Of a stretch of DNA of 64,000 bases, positions 2,498 to 7,352 are shown one piece after another. Each line of letters starts with the position of its first letter. Position 1 is the first letter of the stretch. The stretch comes from an uncultured Alloscardovia sp. (lineage in GTDB: Bacteria; Actinomycetota; Actinomycetes; Actinomycetales; Bifidobacteriaceae). A program made the translations under genes and the position numbers. The notes under the pieces were generated by a model that was not told the DNA's origin, ran no database searches, and saw only the letters and a list, made by a program, of their open reading frames with translations. The stretch covers positions 1,593 through 65,592 of the forward strand of contig CAUUJV010000009.1 of the NCBI GenBank assembly GCA_963545565.1. Direction: 5' to 3'.

Positions 2498-2917
2498 CTA
2501 AATAGCACATGACAAAACCACTGCGATGCATGCTACTGGAATAATAAACGAAGCAAGAACATAGTATGCGGCAAGTCTGTAATACTTTGGATAATGTTTC
2601 GAGTCTTCCCGTCCACGTGTCAGTAGAGTAAAAGTCTCATTCATGGCAGTAGAAAAAGTAGAAAAACCACCAAGAAAGCCTGTAGTTGCAATCGTGTATG
2701 CAGGAATACTGGCAGAAGCACCCGGAACATAGCCGGTTGCACGATTACAGGAAAAAATTGTGAGTGCAAACAGAATAGCTGCAGTGATGTTGATGACGAG
2801 CGTAGAAATAGGGAAAACTGTTCTCCATGTGCGCTTAATTGCAGTATCGACCACAAAACGCGCTACAGCTCCAAGGCCACCACACGTGCAAATTACTAAA
2901 AGCATTCCTACTGCCAT
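2498..2917 (-). CDS. crcB: Fluoride ion channel CrcB/Fluc, paralog 1
   Basis: 139-aa protein with four TM segments. CrcB motifs are present: GGLGAVARF, TLVINITAAILF and GFLGGFSTFST. Confidence 0.85.
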   Translation of the reverse strand: MAVGMLLVICTCGGLGAVARFVVDTAIKRTWRTVFPISTLVINITAAILFALTIFSCNRATGYVPGASASIPAYTIATTGFLGGFSTFSTAMNETFTLLTRGREDSKHYPKYYRLAAYYVLASFIIPVACIAVVLSCAI

Positions 2918-2927
2918 ATATTTAATC

Positions 2928-4163
2928 CTAAATCCTCACTATAAAAGTTATAGTTTCATCTTTGTAATGCACATCAATCTTGCCTTTGAAAAGCTTGACC
3001 ATATTTTGTGCCATGGATAGCCCGATGCCAAAACCGTTGCTGTTACCATTGGCTGAGGTGTGCGAGGAATCTTCACGGTAGAAGCGCTCGAAGAATTTTG
3101 CAAAGTTTGCATTCTTTCCCTCTTTATAAGTGTTGGACACTTCGAGGTGCGCGCTATACCGTAAATCGCGGGATTTGCGTAGAAGAACTGTGACAGTCCC
3201 TTCAGGATCACAGTACTTATTTGCGTTGTCAACCAAAATATTGACCAGCTCGAAGGCAGACTTTGGCTCAGCCTTAATGCTTACGCCCTCATCAATGGCA
3301 ATCTCAAAATGCTTGTTATCGCGCATAATTGGAGCCTTAAAACTTGTGGCAGCATTACGAACAATCTGCGAAAAGTCAAGAGTTTCAAACTTAATATTTG
3401 GCTGCTCTTCCAAGCGTGCTAACGCAACCATCTGATTGATGAGAGCCGTCATGCGCTCAACTTGCACCTTCGTAGACTCAGTCCATTCCGATGACCCCTC
3501 CATCATTTCTTGCAGCTCATTATTCGCAGAGATGATTGCCAAAGGAGTTTTCAATTCATGACCAGCATTGGTGATGAATCGCTTCTGCTTCTCATAATTT
3601 TCAACGTATGGACGCACTGCCCACCGTGAAAGAATAGCAGCAATCACTACAAAGAAGAGCAATCCACCGGCAACCATCATCAGTGAAAGACGATAAAGAC
3701 TATTCCGGGTCTCCACGTTGGAGTTGATATTCATAGCAGTAAGCCGTACGCCATTGCTCTTTTGCGATTTAAGGTATGAGAAATTTTGGTTATTGATAAT
3801 TACCGTTGACGACGGAAAATCGTTATTGAATATCTGCCGAGCCGCAGACTTGACTTGAGCATCCGTTAAATAATTGATATTAGTTTTATTCGTAATCGTT
3901 ATAGTTCCATTGCTCTTTTTTAGCACACTAAAGAACTGATAATGCTGAAGATCCGCGCTAGTGATAGTGGTGCCAAAGAAGCCACTAATGCCTGATGCTG
4001 GAATCTCCCCGTCATTATTATTGATAACCTGCAAAAGTAGAGTAGTTTCGTAACCTGTTTCCCAGCTCTGGGCAAAATTTAGTACTCCCACCGTTGACAT
4101 AAGCACAACAAGAACGGCAACACTTGCAATTGCGATAAAGCGCAAACGCATTTTCTTAAACAT
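2928..4163 (-). CDS. Sensor histidine kinase with two TM segments and an extracytoplasmic loop
   Basis: H-box HELKTPLAIISANNEL, N-box VDNANKYC and G-box GFGIGLSMAQ. There are two hydrophobic segments in the N-terminal half. Confidence 0.9.
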   Translation of the reverse strand: MFKKMRLRFIAIASVAVLVVLMSTVGVLNFAQSWETGYETTLLLQVINNNDGEIPASGISGFFGTTITSADLQHYQFFSVLKKSNGTITITNKTNINYLTDAQVKSAARQIFNNDFPSSTVIINNQNFSYLKSQKSNGVRLTAMNINSNVETRNSLYRLSLMMVAGGLLFFVVIAAILSRWAVRPYVENYEKQKRFITNAGHELKTPLAIISANNELQEMMEGSSEWTESTKVQVERMTALINQMVALARLEEQPNIKFETLDFSQIVRNAATSFKAPIMRDNKHFEIAIDEGVSIKAEPKSAFELVNILVDNANKYCDPEGTVTVLLRKSRDLRYSAHLEVSNTYKEGKNANFAKFFERFYREDSSHTSANGNSNGFGIGLSMAQNMVKLFKGKIDVHYKDETITFIVRI

Positions 4164-4210
4164 CGTCTACTTTCCGAACTTATTTTAGATTTTTTGAGTT
4201 TGATTCTAAA

Positions 4211-4912
4211 CTACTTCTGATTTTCTTTTATATCGTTTGAATTAGTTTTCAAGCTGTACGGCCCGCCTTCGCTTCCTACCACTTCTACATGAGCGCCGAT
4301 TGCCTTAAGCTTTTGCTTGAGATAGGAAATATAAATCCACACGTATCCGACATCTTTACCATCATTCGACGCAAAAGTATGCTCATAAACTTCATCTTGT
4401 GTGACGGCCTTATTCTGAGCATTCAGCATAAGATATTCTAAGAGCTGCGATTCGCTTGACGAAAGACGCATAGAACTGTGAGCCGTAATTTCTTGTTCAG
4501 TGGTGTTCAATGTAATATCGCCAAAATTAAGCTCTTTGCGCGTGAACTTTTCTCCTAGACGACGCTCTATAGAATGCAGGCGCGCCAGAAGTTCCTTCAG
4601 AGAAATTGGCTTAGTAAGGTAATCATCAGCGCCGTAATCAAGTCCCGTGACCATAGCATCTACTTCAGCCATCGCAGTGAGCATAACGATTTGAGCTTTA
4701 TTGCCGCTCGCACGCATCTCCATAAGAGCTTCAAGACCAGTTTTCACGGGCATCATAATATCGAGAATAATAACGTCGAATGCATGGGCTGCGGCTTCTT
4801 CCACCGCGCGCTGACCATTTTCTACTGCAGTAACCTCATAGCCTGCACGTTCCATTGCCACCGTGTAAGCGCGGCGAAGCTGCTGCTCATCTTCTGCAAT
4901 AAGAATCTTCAT
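4211..4912 (-). CDS. OmpR-family response regulator
   Basis: Receiver-domain motifs (ILIAEDE, DVIILDIMMP, LTKPISLKEL) plus a C-terminal winged-helix region. Confidence 0.9.
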   Translation of the reverse strand: MKILIAEDEQQLRRAYTVAMERAGYEVTAVENGQRAVEEAAAHAFDVIILDIMMPVKTGLEALMEMRASGNKAQIVMLTAMAEVDAMVTGLDYGADDYLTKPISLKELLARLHSIERRLGEKFTRKELNFGDITLNTTEQEITAHSSMRLSSSESQLLEYLMLNAQNKAVTQDEVYEHTFASNDGKDVGYVWIYISYLKQKLKAIGAHVEVVGSEGGPYSLKTNSNDIKENQK

Positions 4913-5552: not shown

Positions 5553-5607
5553 ATCAGCTCCCTACATACATGCGAACATCAGTCTGCACGTATTGTACGA
5601 CTCTAAG

Positions 5608-6018
5608 CTAGGCTTTTCCTTTGGCCAGCGCAGCCCCACAGCGTGCCCCAAGAAATGCTGCGCCTATGCCAAGTGCAATCGAAATAATCGCATACACCCA
5701 ACCTAAATGGCTGCTTGCAATCTCAAAAGCTAAAGTAGACATAGTAGAAAGGCCGCCGCACATACCCATGCCTAAACCGCGAGAAAGTAAATCGCCTTTA
5801 TACGAGCCGTGCAAATATACAGAAATCAGCACTGTAATACATGCATACACGAAGCAAGCAATGAGATTAGCGGTAAGTGTGCCCCAATGAATACCCATAA
5901 ATTGAGGCATCGGATTAAGCCACAGACCAAGCACATAACGTAGCCCGGTGCCGACAAAGCCTCCGCAGAATACAACAACATAAATCCATGGATCTGAAAG
6001 TGGAGAACGCTTAATCAT
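5608..6018 (-). CDS. crcB: Fluoride ion channel CrcB/Fluc, paralog 2
   Basis: 136-aa protein with four TM segments. CrcB motifs are present: GGFVGTGLRY, GTLTANLIACF and GMCGGLSTMST. Confidence 0.85.
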   Translation of the reverse strand: MIKRSPLSDPWIYVVVFCGGFVGTGLRYVLGLWLNPMPQFMGIHWGTLTANLIACFVYACITVLISVYLHGSYKGDLLSRGLGMGMCGGLSTMSTLAFEIASSHLGWVYAIISIALGIGAAFLGARCGAALAKGKA

Positions 6019-6047
6019 AAACGTATGAGCTCTTAGTAGGCTGGAAA

Positions 6048-7352
6048 TTAGTCATCAAGTAAGCTGTGAACAGAAATAATCTGGTCTCGCTTTGGCCCAG
6101 TGCCAATCGCAGAAATACGGCAACCTGAGAGCTGCTCAAGGCGACGAACGTAATTCTGTGTAGTCTCAGGAAGTTCATCAAAGTTTTGCACGCCAGAAAT
6201 ATCCTCAGACCAGCCAGGCATCTCCTCATAAATAGGAGTTGCACGAGTAAAAGCATCTTGATCAGTTGGCATGTAATCATAACGGGTATGAGTGCCATCT
6301 GCTTCTTGAACATCGTATGCAACGCAGATAGGGATGGTTCTAAGGCCGGTAAGAACATCAAGCTTAGTGAGCACAATATCAGTTAAGCCATTAGTTTGCA
6401 CAGCATAACGGTTGACGACCGCATCAAACCAACCGCAGCGACGTGGACGGCCGGTGGTCACGCCAAACTCGTGACCTTGAGCTCGCAGCCACTCTCCTTG
6501 CTCGTTATTAAGTTCTGTAGGGAATGGGCCTTCGCCCACACGAGTGATATAAGCCTTAGAAACACCAACAACGCGAGTAATCTTCGTAGGCCCAACACCA
6601 GTTCCAGTGCATGCTCCACCAGCTGTTGGATTAGAAGATGTAACGAACGGATATGTGCCATGATCAACGTCAAGCATAGTTGCCTGACCGCCTTCGAAGA
6701 GCACATTCTTACCTTCATCAAGTGCGGCGTTCAGAATCTGCTGAGTATTTGCAACATATGGGCGCAAGCGCTGGCCAAGCTCAAAAAGCTCATTTGTTAC
6801 TTCATCAACGTCGATTGCACGGCGATTATAAAGTTTCACAAGCATCTGATTCTTCTGATGCAGTGAAGCCTCAACCTTGTCTCGCAAATGCTGCTTGTTA
6901 AATAAGTCATGCACACGAATGCCTACGCGGTTAATCTTGTCTGCATAAGCGGGACCAATTCCTCTACCAGTCGTGCCGATTTTATGCTTACCCAAGAAGC
7001 GTTCCGTCACTTTGTCAAGCACACGATGATATGGCGCAATAATATGCGCAGATTCGCTCACCAGCAGACGAGAGCAGTCAACTCCGCGAGATTCCAATCC
7101 TTCAATTTCTTCGAAAAGAACTTCAGGATCAACCACAACGCCGTTGCCAATAACAGGGGTAGTATTTTCATTCAAAATTCCAGAAGGCAACAAGTGCAAT
7201 GCGTAGGATTCATCTCCCACAACCACAGTATGCCCAGCATTATTTCCGCCGTTAAAGCGTGCAACATAATCAACCTTATGCCCGATTAAATCAGTTGCTT
7301 TACCCTTACCTTCGTCACCCCATTGAGCTCCAATAAGAATAATTCCTGGCAT
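6048..7352 (-). CDS. purA: Adenylosuccinate synthetase
   Basis: N-terminal [15 protein letters not shown]-loop, [11 protein letters not shown] and overall full-length PurA similarity (434 aa). Confidence 0.97.

What the first reader, a model, noticed from the sequence alone, without database searches (positions are those of the whole stretch)
2498..7352. crcB fluoride-channel pair split by an inserted small-alarmone-synthetase + two-component module, directly downstream of purA
Two CrcB/Fluc paralogs normally sit side by side in actinobacteria as a heterodimer pair, for example the adjacent crcB1/crcB2 of mycobacteria. Here they lie at 5608-6018 and 2498-2917 and are separated by three same-strand genes. 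These are a RelQ/RelP-type single-domain (p)ppGpp synthetase (4926-5552), an OmpR-type response regulator (4211-4912) and a histidine kinase (2928-4163). All gaps are short (10-55 nt), and only 29 nt separate the purA stop from the first crcB. This suggests one transcription unit purA-crcB-SAS-RR-HK-crcB. The SAS + RR + HK triad mirrors the relP-relRS operon known from Streptococcus mutans. The kinase region looks more AT-rich than the flanks by eye, which is compatible with horizontal acquisition into a fluoride-export operon. PurA is a classical (p)ppGpp-inhibited enzyme in E. coli, so the physical link between purA and an alarmone synthetase is suggestive. A canonical ClC gene converges on the distal crcB. 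I found no fluoride riboswitch, so how fluoride export is regulated here is an open question.
Basis: partly seen in the sequence, partly recalled or inferred. Interest (0 to 1): 0.6.

Follow-up and report, generated by a model that had tools for sequence, protein, structure and literature searches.

The report
Streptococcal relPRS operon splitting fluoride-channel genes
An Alloscardovia-like bifidobacterium carries a stress-alarm module (alarmone synthetase plus sensor kinase and regulator) that came from oral streptococci and landed exactly between the two genes of a two-part fluoride channel; this is a clean case of gene transfer, but nothing shows a working link to fluoride.

Summary
On the minus strand lie fba, purA, crcB, a small alarmone synthetase (SAS), an OmpR-type regulator, a histidine kinase and a second crcB, with gaps of 29, 55, 13, 47 and 10 nt. 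A canonical ClC gene converges on the second crcB.

The three middle genes are an orthologue of the streptococcal relP-relR-relS operon. All 77 Firmicute loci examined have the same full-length gene order, and the Alloscardovia-type copies form one clade (100/100) nested inside Streptococcus.

The insertion reading is supported, but the event is old. The same interleaved order occurs in four of seven Alloscardovia species. The other three, and at least four other bifidobacterial genera, keep purA-crcB-crcB uninterrupted, often with a 4-nt overlap between the crcB genes. Codon usage is ameliorated, so the "AT-rich" cue is weak.

The two CrcB proteins have opposite predicted membrane topology, so they probably form an obligate heterodimer. 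The distal subunit would then have to be transcribed through or from relPRS. No donor-type promoter, terminator or fluoride riboswitch was found.

The adjacency to purA follows from the ancestral purA-crcB linkage. I class this as a new member of a known kind in an unusual position, of moderate to low interest.

The parts
7474..8598 (-). fba (class II fructose-bisphosphate aldolase); upstream member of the conserved fba-purA-crcB-crcB block
   Evidence: Pfam F_bP_aldolase 254.9 bits and NCBIfam NF006628 466 bits. Same position in relatives.
6048..7352 (-). purA (adenylosuccinate synthetase)
   Evidence: Pfam 616 bits and NCBIfam NF002223 645 bits, above cut-off. 83-86% identical in relatives, and followed by crcB in most genera sampled.
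5608..6018 (-). Proximal crcB (Fluc subunit). Predicted N-terminus-in topology. TM3 motif GGLSTMSTL.
   Evidence: Pfam CRCB 61.9 bits. PDB Fluc-Ec2 and Fluc-Bpe hits at E 6e-6 to 2e-5. K+R counts per loop 2/0/2/0/2.
5553..5607 (-). Left junction of the insert: 55-nt spacer with a GGGAG ribosome-binding site 5 nt before the relP ATG. No donor-type extended -10 promoter.
   Evidence: Sequence read. 0 of 6 Alloscardovia-type loci have TGnTAWAAT upstream of relP, against 70 of 77 Firmicute loci.
4926..5552 (-). relP-type small alarmone synthetase (synthetase domain only)
   Evidence: Pfam RelA_SpoT 101.7 bits. Best PDB hits are RelP/YwaC entries 6fgk and 6ewz (E 6e-29 and 2e-26), with the motifs RxKS, DxxGxR, YRSxH, ExQIRT and EHxxxYK all kept. 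57-63% identical to the streptococcal gene that sits first in relPRS.
4211..4912 (-). relR-type OmpR-family response regulator
   Evidence: Pfam Response_reg + Trans_reg_C. 46-58% identical over its full length to the regulator that follows relP in Firmicute loci.
2928..4163 (-). relS-type sensor histidine kinase: TM1, a ~100-aa extracytoplasmic alpha/beta (PAS/PDC-like) domain, TM2 running directly into DHp, then the CA domain
   Evidence: Pfam HisKA + HATPase_c. 33-50% identical over residues 1-409 to streptococcal RelS. AlphaFold model pLDDT 79 with secondary structure as described. Foldseek full-length matches to PAS/LOV-HK chimeras and WalK.
2918..2927 (-). Right junction: 10-nt spacer. 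AGGA lies 8 nt before the distal crcB ATG.
   Evidence: Sequence read.
2498..2917 (-). Distal crcB (Fluc subunit). Predicted N-terminus-out topology. TM3 motif GGFSTFSTA.
   Evidence: Pfam CRCB 60.8 bits. K+R counts per loop 0/3/1/5/0, opposite to the proximal copy. PDB Fluc and FEX hits.
834..2489 (+). Canonical ClC Cl-/H+ exchanger-type gene with a TrkA_C domain, converging on the distal crcB. Part of the conserved ancestral neighbourhood, not of the insert.
   Evidence: Pfam Voltage_CLC 293 bits + TrkA_C. Same convergent position in all seven Alloscardovia genomes and in one outgroup, G007 (L087).

Best explanation
The region is a conserved bifidobacterial block, fba-purA-crcB(proximal)-crcB(distal) facing a ClC gene. 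A complete streptococcal-type relP-relR-relS operon was inserted into it, once, in the few bases between the stop codon of the proximal crcB and the ribosome-binding site of the distal crcB. The donor was a Streptococcus-like oral firmicute.

The event is old. It is shared by this genome (its own GTDB genus) and four of seven Alloscardovia species, and the genes have since adopted host codon usage under purifying selection.

Inferred function, by homology with S. mutans relPRS:
- RelS senses an extracytoplasmic signal through a small PAS/PDC-like domain and phosphorylates RelR.
- RelR adjusts transcription.
- RelP makes (p)ppGpp from ATP and GTP/GDP.
- The long Rel enzyme elsewhere in the genome removes it.

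The two CrcB proteins have opposite topology and most likely work only as a heterodimer. The distal subunit must therefore still be expressed. The simplest arrangement is one purA/crcB-driven transcript that reads through relPRS into the distal crcB. That would also give RelP a basal, growth-linked expression.

The links to fluoride export and to purA are positional consequences of where the DNA landed.

Shown: gene identities, orthology, insertion site, empty sites, age and selection. Inferred: enzymatic activity, the signal sensed, and co-transcription.
For: Gene identities.

Orthology with relPRS:
- All 77 Firmicute loci (Streptococcus, Abiotrophia, Lachnoanaerobaculum) carry SAS-RR-HK in the same order, matched over their full lengths at 57-63%, 46-58% and 33-50% identity.
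- The S. mutans relPRS operon (SMU.926-928) is described in PMC4963387.

Phylogeny: in the concatenated tree the five Alloscardovia-type copies form one clade (100/100) nested among streptococcal clades.

Empty sites:
- Three Alloscardovia genomes (G029, G001, G050) and genera g14, g8, g7 and g12 have purA-crcB-crcB uninterrupted.
- The two crcB ORFs overlap by 4 nt in five of these loci.
- The conserved basic tail and stop codon of the proximal crcB are retained beside the insert.

Age and selection:
- GC3 and synonymous codon usage are normal for the genome.
- dN/dS is about 0.1 or less, with dS saturated.
- The insert topology is compatible with the RpoB+RpoC species tree (AU p=0.07).

Catalytic competence: all synthetase motifs are kept. 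The H-box His and the receiver Asp are present in the translations, and H202 is invariant in the alignment.

Heterodimer logic: the two CrcB proteins have opposite K+R bias. The paired Flucs La1 and La2 are inactive alone and active together (PMC3755343).

Operon model:
- Gaps are 10-55 nt and no terminator-like site lies between the genes.
- The donor's extended -10 promoter is present in 70 of 77 Firmicute loci and absent in 0 of 6 here.
- In A. macacae only 22 nt separate crcB from relP.

A long Rel with a 787-aa open frame exists in the genome.
Against: - Internal promoters cannot be excluded. One candidate is the TACAAT in the 55-nt spacer, and actinobacterial promoters are poorly captured by the sigma-70 scan.
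- "One gain" needs either at least two clean losses (G050, and the G029+G001 branch) or later spread by recombination within the clade. The flank trees are too poorly resolved to decide.
- The ratio of G000-to-Alloscardovia distance over within-Alloscardovia distance is lower for the insert (~1.4) than for the flanks (~2) or RpoBC (~4). I computed these ratios by hand from the branch lengths. They hint at a non-vertical step or at unequal rates.
- The backbone support placing the clade among particular streptococci is weak (80/94).
- Enzyme activity, the RelS signal and the RelR targets are all inferred.
Confidence: 0.8

Rival explanations
1. Functional integration. After insertion the module was co-opted to control fluoride export. 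RelRS would sense acid/fluoride or envelope stress and set the level of the distal Fluc subunit, and so the amount of assembled channel, together with (p)ppGpp. This would replace the lost fluoride riboswitch.
For: - The arrangement and tight spacing have been kept through deep divergence in five species.
- This genome has no fluoride riboswitch, and 10 relatives' loci have none either.
- A deeper-branching genus has a riboswitch-like element between purA and crcB (28.8 bits), so a regulator was lost in this lineage.
- The named Alloscardovia and donor genomes include oral and dental isolates (record titles).
Against: - Three Alloscardovia species and many other genera manage with the same riboswitch-less crcB pair and no relPRS.
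- No crcB lies within 6 kb of relPRS in any of 77 Firmicute loci.
- No conserved operator-like repeat was found upstream of relP or the distal crcB.
- Retention of the order is equally explained by the need to keep the distal crcB transcribed.
Confidence: 0.1
2. Separate transcription units. relPRS keeps its own RelR-autoregulated promoter in the crcB-relP spacer, and the distal crcB is expressed from that promoter or from one inside relS. The two Fluc subunits would then be regulated independently.
For: - In S. mutans relPRS is an operon in its own right (PMC4963387).
- A TACAAT hexamer sits about 40 nt upstream of relP in the window.
- Weak sigma-70-like matches occur inside the cluster, for example at 3031-3003 on the minus strand.
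Against: - The promoter-like count in the region (11) is below the shuffled expectation (16.4).
- The TACAAT is not conserved in the four Alloscardovia orthologous spacers, one of which is only 22 nt long.
- The donor-type TGnTATAAT is absent in all six Alloscardovia-type loci.
Confidence: 0.25
3. Repeated lateral spread rather than vertical descent. The insert arose in one lineage and then moved between the window's lineage and Alloscardovia species by homologous recombination through the conserved crcB, purA and ClC flanks. On this view the three empty species never had it.
For: - The empty sites look pristine, with a 4-nt GTGA overlap in G029 and no remnants of the module.
- The presence/absence pattern is not monophyletic on the RpoBC tree.
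- The relative G000-to-Alloscardovia distance is smaller for the insert than for the flanks or RpoBC.
Against: - The insert tree places the window's copy outside all Alloscardovia copies, and its internal order is not significantly different from the species tree (AU p=0.07).
- The flank trees do not group the insert-bearers against the species tree with any support.
- dS is saturated between all pairs, so no transfer is recent.
Confidence: 0.3
4. Assembly or binning artefact that joined streptococcal DNA to a bifidobacterial contig.
For: The module's nearest relatives outside the Alloscardovia clade are streptococcal.
Against: - The same junctions occur in four independently sequenced Alloscardovia genomes, including type strains and one single-contig genome.
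- Identity to any Firmicute is only about 60%.
- Codon usage is that of the host.
Confidence: 0.01

Closest known systems
relPRS operon of Streptococcus mutans (SMU.926-928: RelP small alarmone synthetase with the RelRS two-component system; Lemos et al. 2007, as cited in PMC4963387)
   Same: Same three genes in the same order, matched over their full lengths (including the kinase's sensor domain) to the relPRS loci of mutans-group and other streptococci. S. mutans itself was not among the loci. Synthetase-only RelP with all catalytic motifs. The copy here nests phylogenetically inside the streptococcal clade.
   Different: - The host is an actinobacterium (Bifidobacteriaceae), whereas RelP was catalogued as a Firmicute subgroup (PMC3153485).
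- The donor-type extended -10 promoter is missing.
- The operon is embedded between the two genes of a Fluc heterodimer, downstream of purA, rather than standing alone.
RelP/SAS2 of Staphylococcus aureus and YwaC of Bacillus subtilis (PDB 6ewz, 6ex0, 6fgk)
   Same: Best solved-structure matches (E 6e-29 to 2e-26). Same single-domain fold and the same motifs.
   Different: From my own knowledge, not tested here: those genes are monocistronic and are induced by cell-wall stress through VraRS or sigma factors, not encoded with a dedicated two-component system.
Paired, dual-topology Fluc (CrcB) heterodimers such as La1/La2 of Lactobacillus acidophilus (PMC3755343)
   Same: Two ~135-aa CRCB proteins with four TM segments and opposite positive-inside bias. 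They are adjacent and translationally coupled in relatives.
   Different: - Here the two genes lie 2.7 kb apart.
- The TM3 Phe residues of the GxxGGxTTFSTFxxE motif are asymmetric across the whole family: M and L in the proximal subunit, F and A in the distal one. This suggests a channel with at most one canonical pore, as in eukaryotic FEX (PMC5417652, abstract seen).

Membership tests
RelP-type small alarmone synthetase / relPRS operon | Single RelA_SpoT synthetase domain with no HD hydrolase, TGS or ACT domains | tested here: met
   Pfam finds only PF04607, covering residues 49-173 of 208.
RelP-type small alarmone synthetase / relPRS operon | Conserved synthetase catalytic motifs (RxKS, DxxGxR, YRSxH, ExQIRT, EHxxxYK) | tested here: met
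   All are visible in the HMMER alignments to 6fgk and 6ewz.
RelP-type small alarmone synthetase / relPRS operon | Followed on the same strand by an OmpR-type regulator and a histidine kinase orthologous to RelR and RelS | tested here: met
   Domains. Full-length collinear matches in 77 of 77 Firmicute loci.
RelP-type small alarmone synthetase / relPRS operon | Phylogenetic placement with streptococcal relPRS rather than with RelQ or the native actinobacterial SAS | tested here: met
   Nested in the streptococcal clade, with the Alloscardovia clade at 100/100. Only 30-41% identity to the family's native SAS. RelP/YwaC structures score better than RelQ/YjbM structures.
RelP-type small alarmone synthetase / relPRS operon | (p)ppGpp/pGpp synthetase activity and co-transcription of the three genes | not testable with these tools
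   This needs an enzyme assay and RNA data.
Heterodimeric dual-topology Fluc (CrcB) channel | Two homologous ~130-aa CRCB proteins with four TM helices and opposite K+R (positive-inside) bias | tested here: met
   Pfam CRCB hit for both. Loop K+R counts are 2/0/2/0/2 against 0/3/1/5/0.
Heterodimeric dual-topology Fluc (CrcB) channel | Genes arranged in tandem | tested here: not met
   They are separated by the three relPRS genes in the window. They are adjacent or overlapping in relatives without the insert.
Heterodimeric dual-topology Fluc (CrcB) channel | TM3 signature GxxGGxTTFSTFxxE with both pore-lining Phe residues | tested here: inconclusive
   The proximal copy has GMCGGLSTMSTLAFE and the distal copy GFLGGFSTFSTAMNE. 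The pattern is conserved across the family, so it is under selection, but the Phe box is incomplete.
Fluoride riboswitch-controlled crcB operon | crcB RNA motif (RF01734) upstream of the fluoride exporter | tested here: not met
   No hit at E<=1 in window 1-12000, none in the whole genome at E<=0.001, and none in 10 relatives' loci. A sub-threshold hit exists only in genus g3.
toxSAS toxin-antitoxin module | SAS toxin paired with a small adjacent antitoxin gene, typically on mobile DNA | tested here: not met
   The neighbours are a two-component system and crcB. No small partner ORF, flanking repeats or mobile-element genes were found.

The most novel reading that the evidence does not exclude
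The streptococcal relPRS module has been domesticated as the regulator of a bipartite fluoride channel. Because the distal Fluc subunit can only be made by transcription through or from relPRS, RelRS signalling (acid, fluoride or envelope stress in dental plaque) would set the heterodimer's stoichiometry and the (p)ppGpp level together. This would replace the fluoride riboswitch that a deeper-branching relative still seems to carry at the same spot.
Probability: 0.1. Interest if true: 0.6.

Novelty: new member of a known kind. Interest (0 to 1): 0.33.

Why it matters
This is a well-documented cross-phylum transfer, from oral Firmicutes to Bifidobacteriaceae, of a whole signalling operon. The ancestral empty site survives in sister species, and the insert has persisted between two genes that were translationally coupled and whose products must assemble one-to-one.

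That sets up a natural experiment. Insert-bearing and insert-free Alloscardovia species can be compared to ask two things: how an acquired alarmone circuit is wired into host transcription, and what happens to a heterodimeric channel when its genes are pulled apart.

It also extends RelP, catalogued as a Firmicute enzyme, into Actinobacteria. In this genome the native small synthetase appears to have decayed, which suggests replacement. None of this changes current understanding of (p)ppGpp or of fluoride export.

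Tried and rejected
- **Composition as evidence of transfer.** Overall GC of SAS and HK is slightly low, but GC3 and codon usage are normal, so I did not use it.
- **Mobile-element signatures.** I found no flanking direct or inverted repeats beyond crcB paralogy.
- **Remnants of relPRS in the three empty Alloscardovia sites.** None seen by tblastn or by eye.
Absent from all 87 upstream regions.
- **Promoter and terminator scan.** Fewer matches than in shuffles and nothing at the junctions.
- **Flank gene trees to separate loss from recombinational gain.** Interior nodes were too weak.
- **Fold search of the kinase model.** It confirmed a PAS-like sensor plus DHp-CA but gave no clue to the ligand.
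- **crcB near relPRS in Firmicutes.** None within 6 kb.

Full report
**1. What is in the sequence**

- fba, 7474-8598.
- purA, 6048-7352 (616 bits).
- A CRCB protein, 5608-6018.
- A 208-aa protein with only a RelA_SpoT synthetase domain, 4926-5552.
- An OmpR-type response regulator, 4211-4912.
- A HisKA/HATPase_c kinase, 2928-4163.
- A second CRCB protein, 2498-2917.

The spacers are 29, 55, 13, 47 and 10 nt. A ClC gene with a TrkA_C domain (834-2489, plus strand) converges on the distal crcB, with 8 nt between the stop codons. Its translation carries the canonical GSGIP and GREGP motifs. No Rfam family reaches even E=0.1 in the first 12 kb.

**2. The three middle genes are relPRS**

A genome-collection scan with the SAS protein returned three Alloscardovia species at 62-75% identity. 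After those came only Abiotrophia, Streptococcus and Lachnoanaerobaculum, at 57-63%.

In all 77 Firmicute loci the SAS is followed by the regulator (46-58% identity) and the kinase (33-50%). Both are matched from the first residue to the last, including the kinase's sensor half. This is the relP-relR-relS operon described for S. mutans (SMU.926-928; PMC4963387).

The best solved structures are RelP/YwaC (6fgk, 6ewz; E 6e-29 and 2e-26), ahead of RelQ/YjbM. The alignments show every synthetase motif intact.

An AlphaFold model of the kinase (pLDDT 79) shows this layout:
- a TM helix;
- a ~100-residue alpha/beta domain (residues ~50-146);
- a second TM helix that continues without a HAMP domain into the DHp helix;
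- the CA domain.

Foldseek aligns the whole length to PAS/LOV-kinase chimeras and to WalK. The sensor is therefore a small extracytoplasmic PAS/PDC-like domain. Its ligand is unknown.

**3. It is an insertion, and the empty site exists**

The window's genome (G000) is the only member of its GTDB genus. The sister genus, Alloscardovia, has seven species.

I located purA in 20 family genomes, fetched the downstream DNA and mapped the window's proteins onto it.
- Four Alloscardovia species (criceti, macacae, omnicolens and G041) have the window's order: purA-crcB-relP-relR-relS-crcB, facing ClC.
- The other three (G029, G001, G050) have fba-purA-crcB-crcB facing ClC, with nothing between the crcB genes.
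- Genera g14, g8, g7 and g12 also have purA followed by the uninterrupted crcB pair; the convergent ClC was seen only in the g8 locus.

In five of these empty loci the two crcB ORFs overlap by 4 nt, which indicates translational coupling. In two others they lie 2-12 nt apart.

The basic C-terminal tail and stop codon of the proximal crcB are recognisable on both insert-bearing and empty alleles. The foreign DNA therefore went into the few bases between that stop codon and the distal gene's Shine-Dalgarno sequence.

No repeats or mobile-element genes flank the insert. The empty sites hold no remnant of it.

**4. Origin and age**

In a concatenated RelP+RelR+RelS tree, the five Alloscardovia-type copies form one clade (100/100). 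The window's copy is basal within it, and the clade nests among streptococcal lineages. The Lachnoanaerobaculum copies are nested there as well.

A second, different relPRS-like module (about 52%, 48% and 40% identity) sits elsewhere in genus g7 and in one Bifidobacterium genome. It groups with a Lachnospiraceae MAG. The family has therefore acquired such modules at least twice.

The insert is compositionally ameliorated. Overall GC of relP (41.6%) and relS (42.6%) is in the low tail of the genome's ORFs, which average 46.2 +/- 2.9%. GC3 and synonymous codon usage are unremarkable.

Synonymous sites are saturated between all pairs, and dN/dS is about 0.1 or less. The genes are therefore old and functional.

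**5. One gain, and then what?**

The RpoB+RpoC tree gives Alloscardovia as (G050-empty, ((criceti, (omnicolens, G041)), (macacae, (G029-empty, G001-empty)))). G000 lies outside this group.

An identical insertion site and a monophyletic insert argue for a single integration. The presence/absence pattern then needs one of two things:
- at least two clean losses; or
- later spread, or erasure, by homologous recombination through the conserved flanks.

The evidence does not separate these.
- The insert's internal topology differs slightly from the species tree, but not significantly (AU p=0.07).
- The flank trees are unresolved.
- By my hand calculation from the branch lengths, the ratio of G000-to-Alloscardovia distance over within-Alloscardovia distance is ~1.4 for the insert, ~2 for the flanks and ~4 for RpoBC. 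This hints weakly at a non-vertical step or at unequal rates.

I leave this point open.

**6. The fluoride channel pair**

The two CrcB proteins have opposite positive-inside bias. Loop K+R counts are 2/0/2/0/2 for the proximal copy and 0/3/1/5/0 for the distal copy. This is the signature of paired, dual-topology Fluc heterodimers. In the tested pair, La1 and La2, neither subunit works alone (PMC3755343).

Across the whole family the TM3 motif is asymmetric: GGLSTMST(L/F) in the proximal subunit and GG(F/L/M)STFSTA in the distal one. At most one pore would then keep a Phe at each box position. This resembles single-barrelled FEX, but that is an inference.

If both subunits are needed, the distal gene must still be transcribed after the insertion.

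**7. Transcription (inferred only)**

- No terminator-like hairpin lies between purA and the distal crcB, and promoter-like matches are fewer than in shuffles.
- Of the 77 Firmicute loci, 70 have an extended -10 (TGnTAWAAT) within ~150 nt upstream of relP. None of the six Alloscardovia-type loci does.
- In A. macacae only 22 nt, containing a Shine-Dalgarno sequence, separate crcB from relP.

The simplest model is read-through from the purA/crcB promoter across relPRS into the distal crcB. A TACAAT hexamer in the window's 55-nt spacer is not conserved in the orthologous spacers.

**8. The purA and fluoride links**

purA-crcB linkage is family-wide and predates the insert. The purA-relP adjacency is therefore a by-product of where the DNA landed.

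No crcB lies near relPRS in any Firmicute locus.

This genome has no fluoride riboswitch anywhere, and neither do ten relatives' loci. One deeper-branching genus (g3) has a riboswitch-like element (28.8 bits against a 34-bit cut-off; E=4e-4) exactly between purA and crcB. A riboswitch at this spot may therefore have been lost in the lineage leading to Bifidobacterium and Alloscardovia.

Relatives without relPRS also lack the riboswitch, so the module is not needed to replace it. Co-option remains possible but unsupported; I put it at about 10%.

**9. RSH inventory**

The genome encodes three RSH-family genes:
- a long Rel, in a 787-aa open frame;
- the acquired RelP;
- the family's native SAS, which is only 30-41% identical to RelP.

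Here the native SAS is broken by two frameshifts, one of them in a T6 run. In the insert-bearing Alloscardovia species the native SAS is intact. This fits replacement of the native enzyme in this lineage. Earlier notes record several other frameshifted genes in the window, so sequencing error is not excluded.

**10. Verdict**

It is wrong, or unsupported, about recency, about composition as evidence, and about any designed link with purA or fluoride.

RelP was catalogued as a Firmicute SAS, and SASs are known to move horizontally (PMC3153485). I found no paper linking Alloscardovia or bifidobacteria with RelP.

I class this as a new member of a known kind in an unusual genomic position. It is useful as a natural experiment but not surprising to a specialist.

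Noticed in passing
L103:5160-5814 (G000 contig C1, about 109.2-109.8 kb; outside the window): The family's native small alarmone synthetase is split by two frameshifts in this genome. The first falls in a T6 run (CAGCTTTTTTGATGTG). Orthologues in Alloscardovia are intact. It is either a pseudogene replaced by the acquired RelP or the result of homopolymer sequencing errors.
   Followed up: partly
window 5608-6018 and 2498-2917; relatives L001, L018 and L081-L094: The Fluc TM3 Phe box is asymmetric and conserved across the family: the proximal subunit has GGLSTMST(L/F) and the distal subunit has GG(F/L/M)STFSTA. This suggests a heterodimer with at most one canonical pore, as in eukaryotic FEX.
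   Followed up: partly
L096:8687-8782 (genus g3, G002 contig C6): A sub-threshold fluoride riboswitch (RF01734, 28.8 bits against a 34-bit cut-off, E=4e-4) lies exactly between purA and the crcB genes in a deeper-branching bifidobacterial genus. It is absent from the window's genome and from ten closer relatives' loci.
   Followed up: partly
L098-L101 (genus g7 genomes and Bifidobacterium G076): A second, distinct relPRS-like module (about 52%, 48% and 40% identity) sits at an unrelated site and groups with a Lachnospiraceae MAG. In g7 the kinase has a much larger N-terminal region. This looks like an independent acquisition by the family.
   Followed up: partly
L021, L041, L069, L076 (Lachnoanaerobaculum and oral Lachnospiraceae): In the tree (L021, L041, L069) their relPRS copies nest inside the streptococcal clade with a long stem. 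This suggests another transfer among oral bacteria.
   Followed up: no
L085, about 60-30 nt upstream of relP (G041): Three perfect tandem copies of the 9-nt unit CACTGTCAA lie just upstream of relP in one Alloscardovia genome only. The unit is not seen in the other spacers.
   Followed up: no
L092 (genus g6, G005): purA is followed directly by the convergent ClC gene, and both crcB genes are missing from this locus. In the RpoBC tree this genus groups weakly with the window's genome.
   Followed up: no
window 5608-6018, compared with L001:4853-5860, L018:5246-5902 and L081-L090: The proximal CrcB is a minimal 136 aa here. In relatives it carries long, variable, basic N- and C-terminal extensions (165-335 aa in total) that often end in R/K-rich ...RKRRH.
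   Followed up: no
window 2489-2498: The stop codons of ClC and the distal crcB are only 8 nt apart on opposite strands, with no terminator-like hairpin between them. Convergent transcripts would overlap.
   Followed up: no
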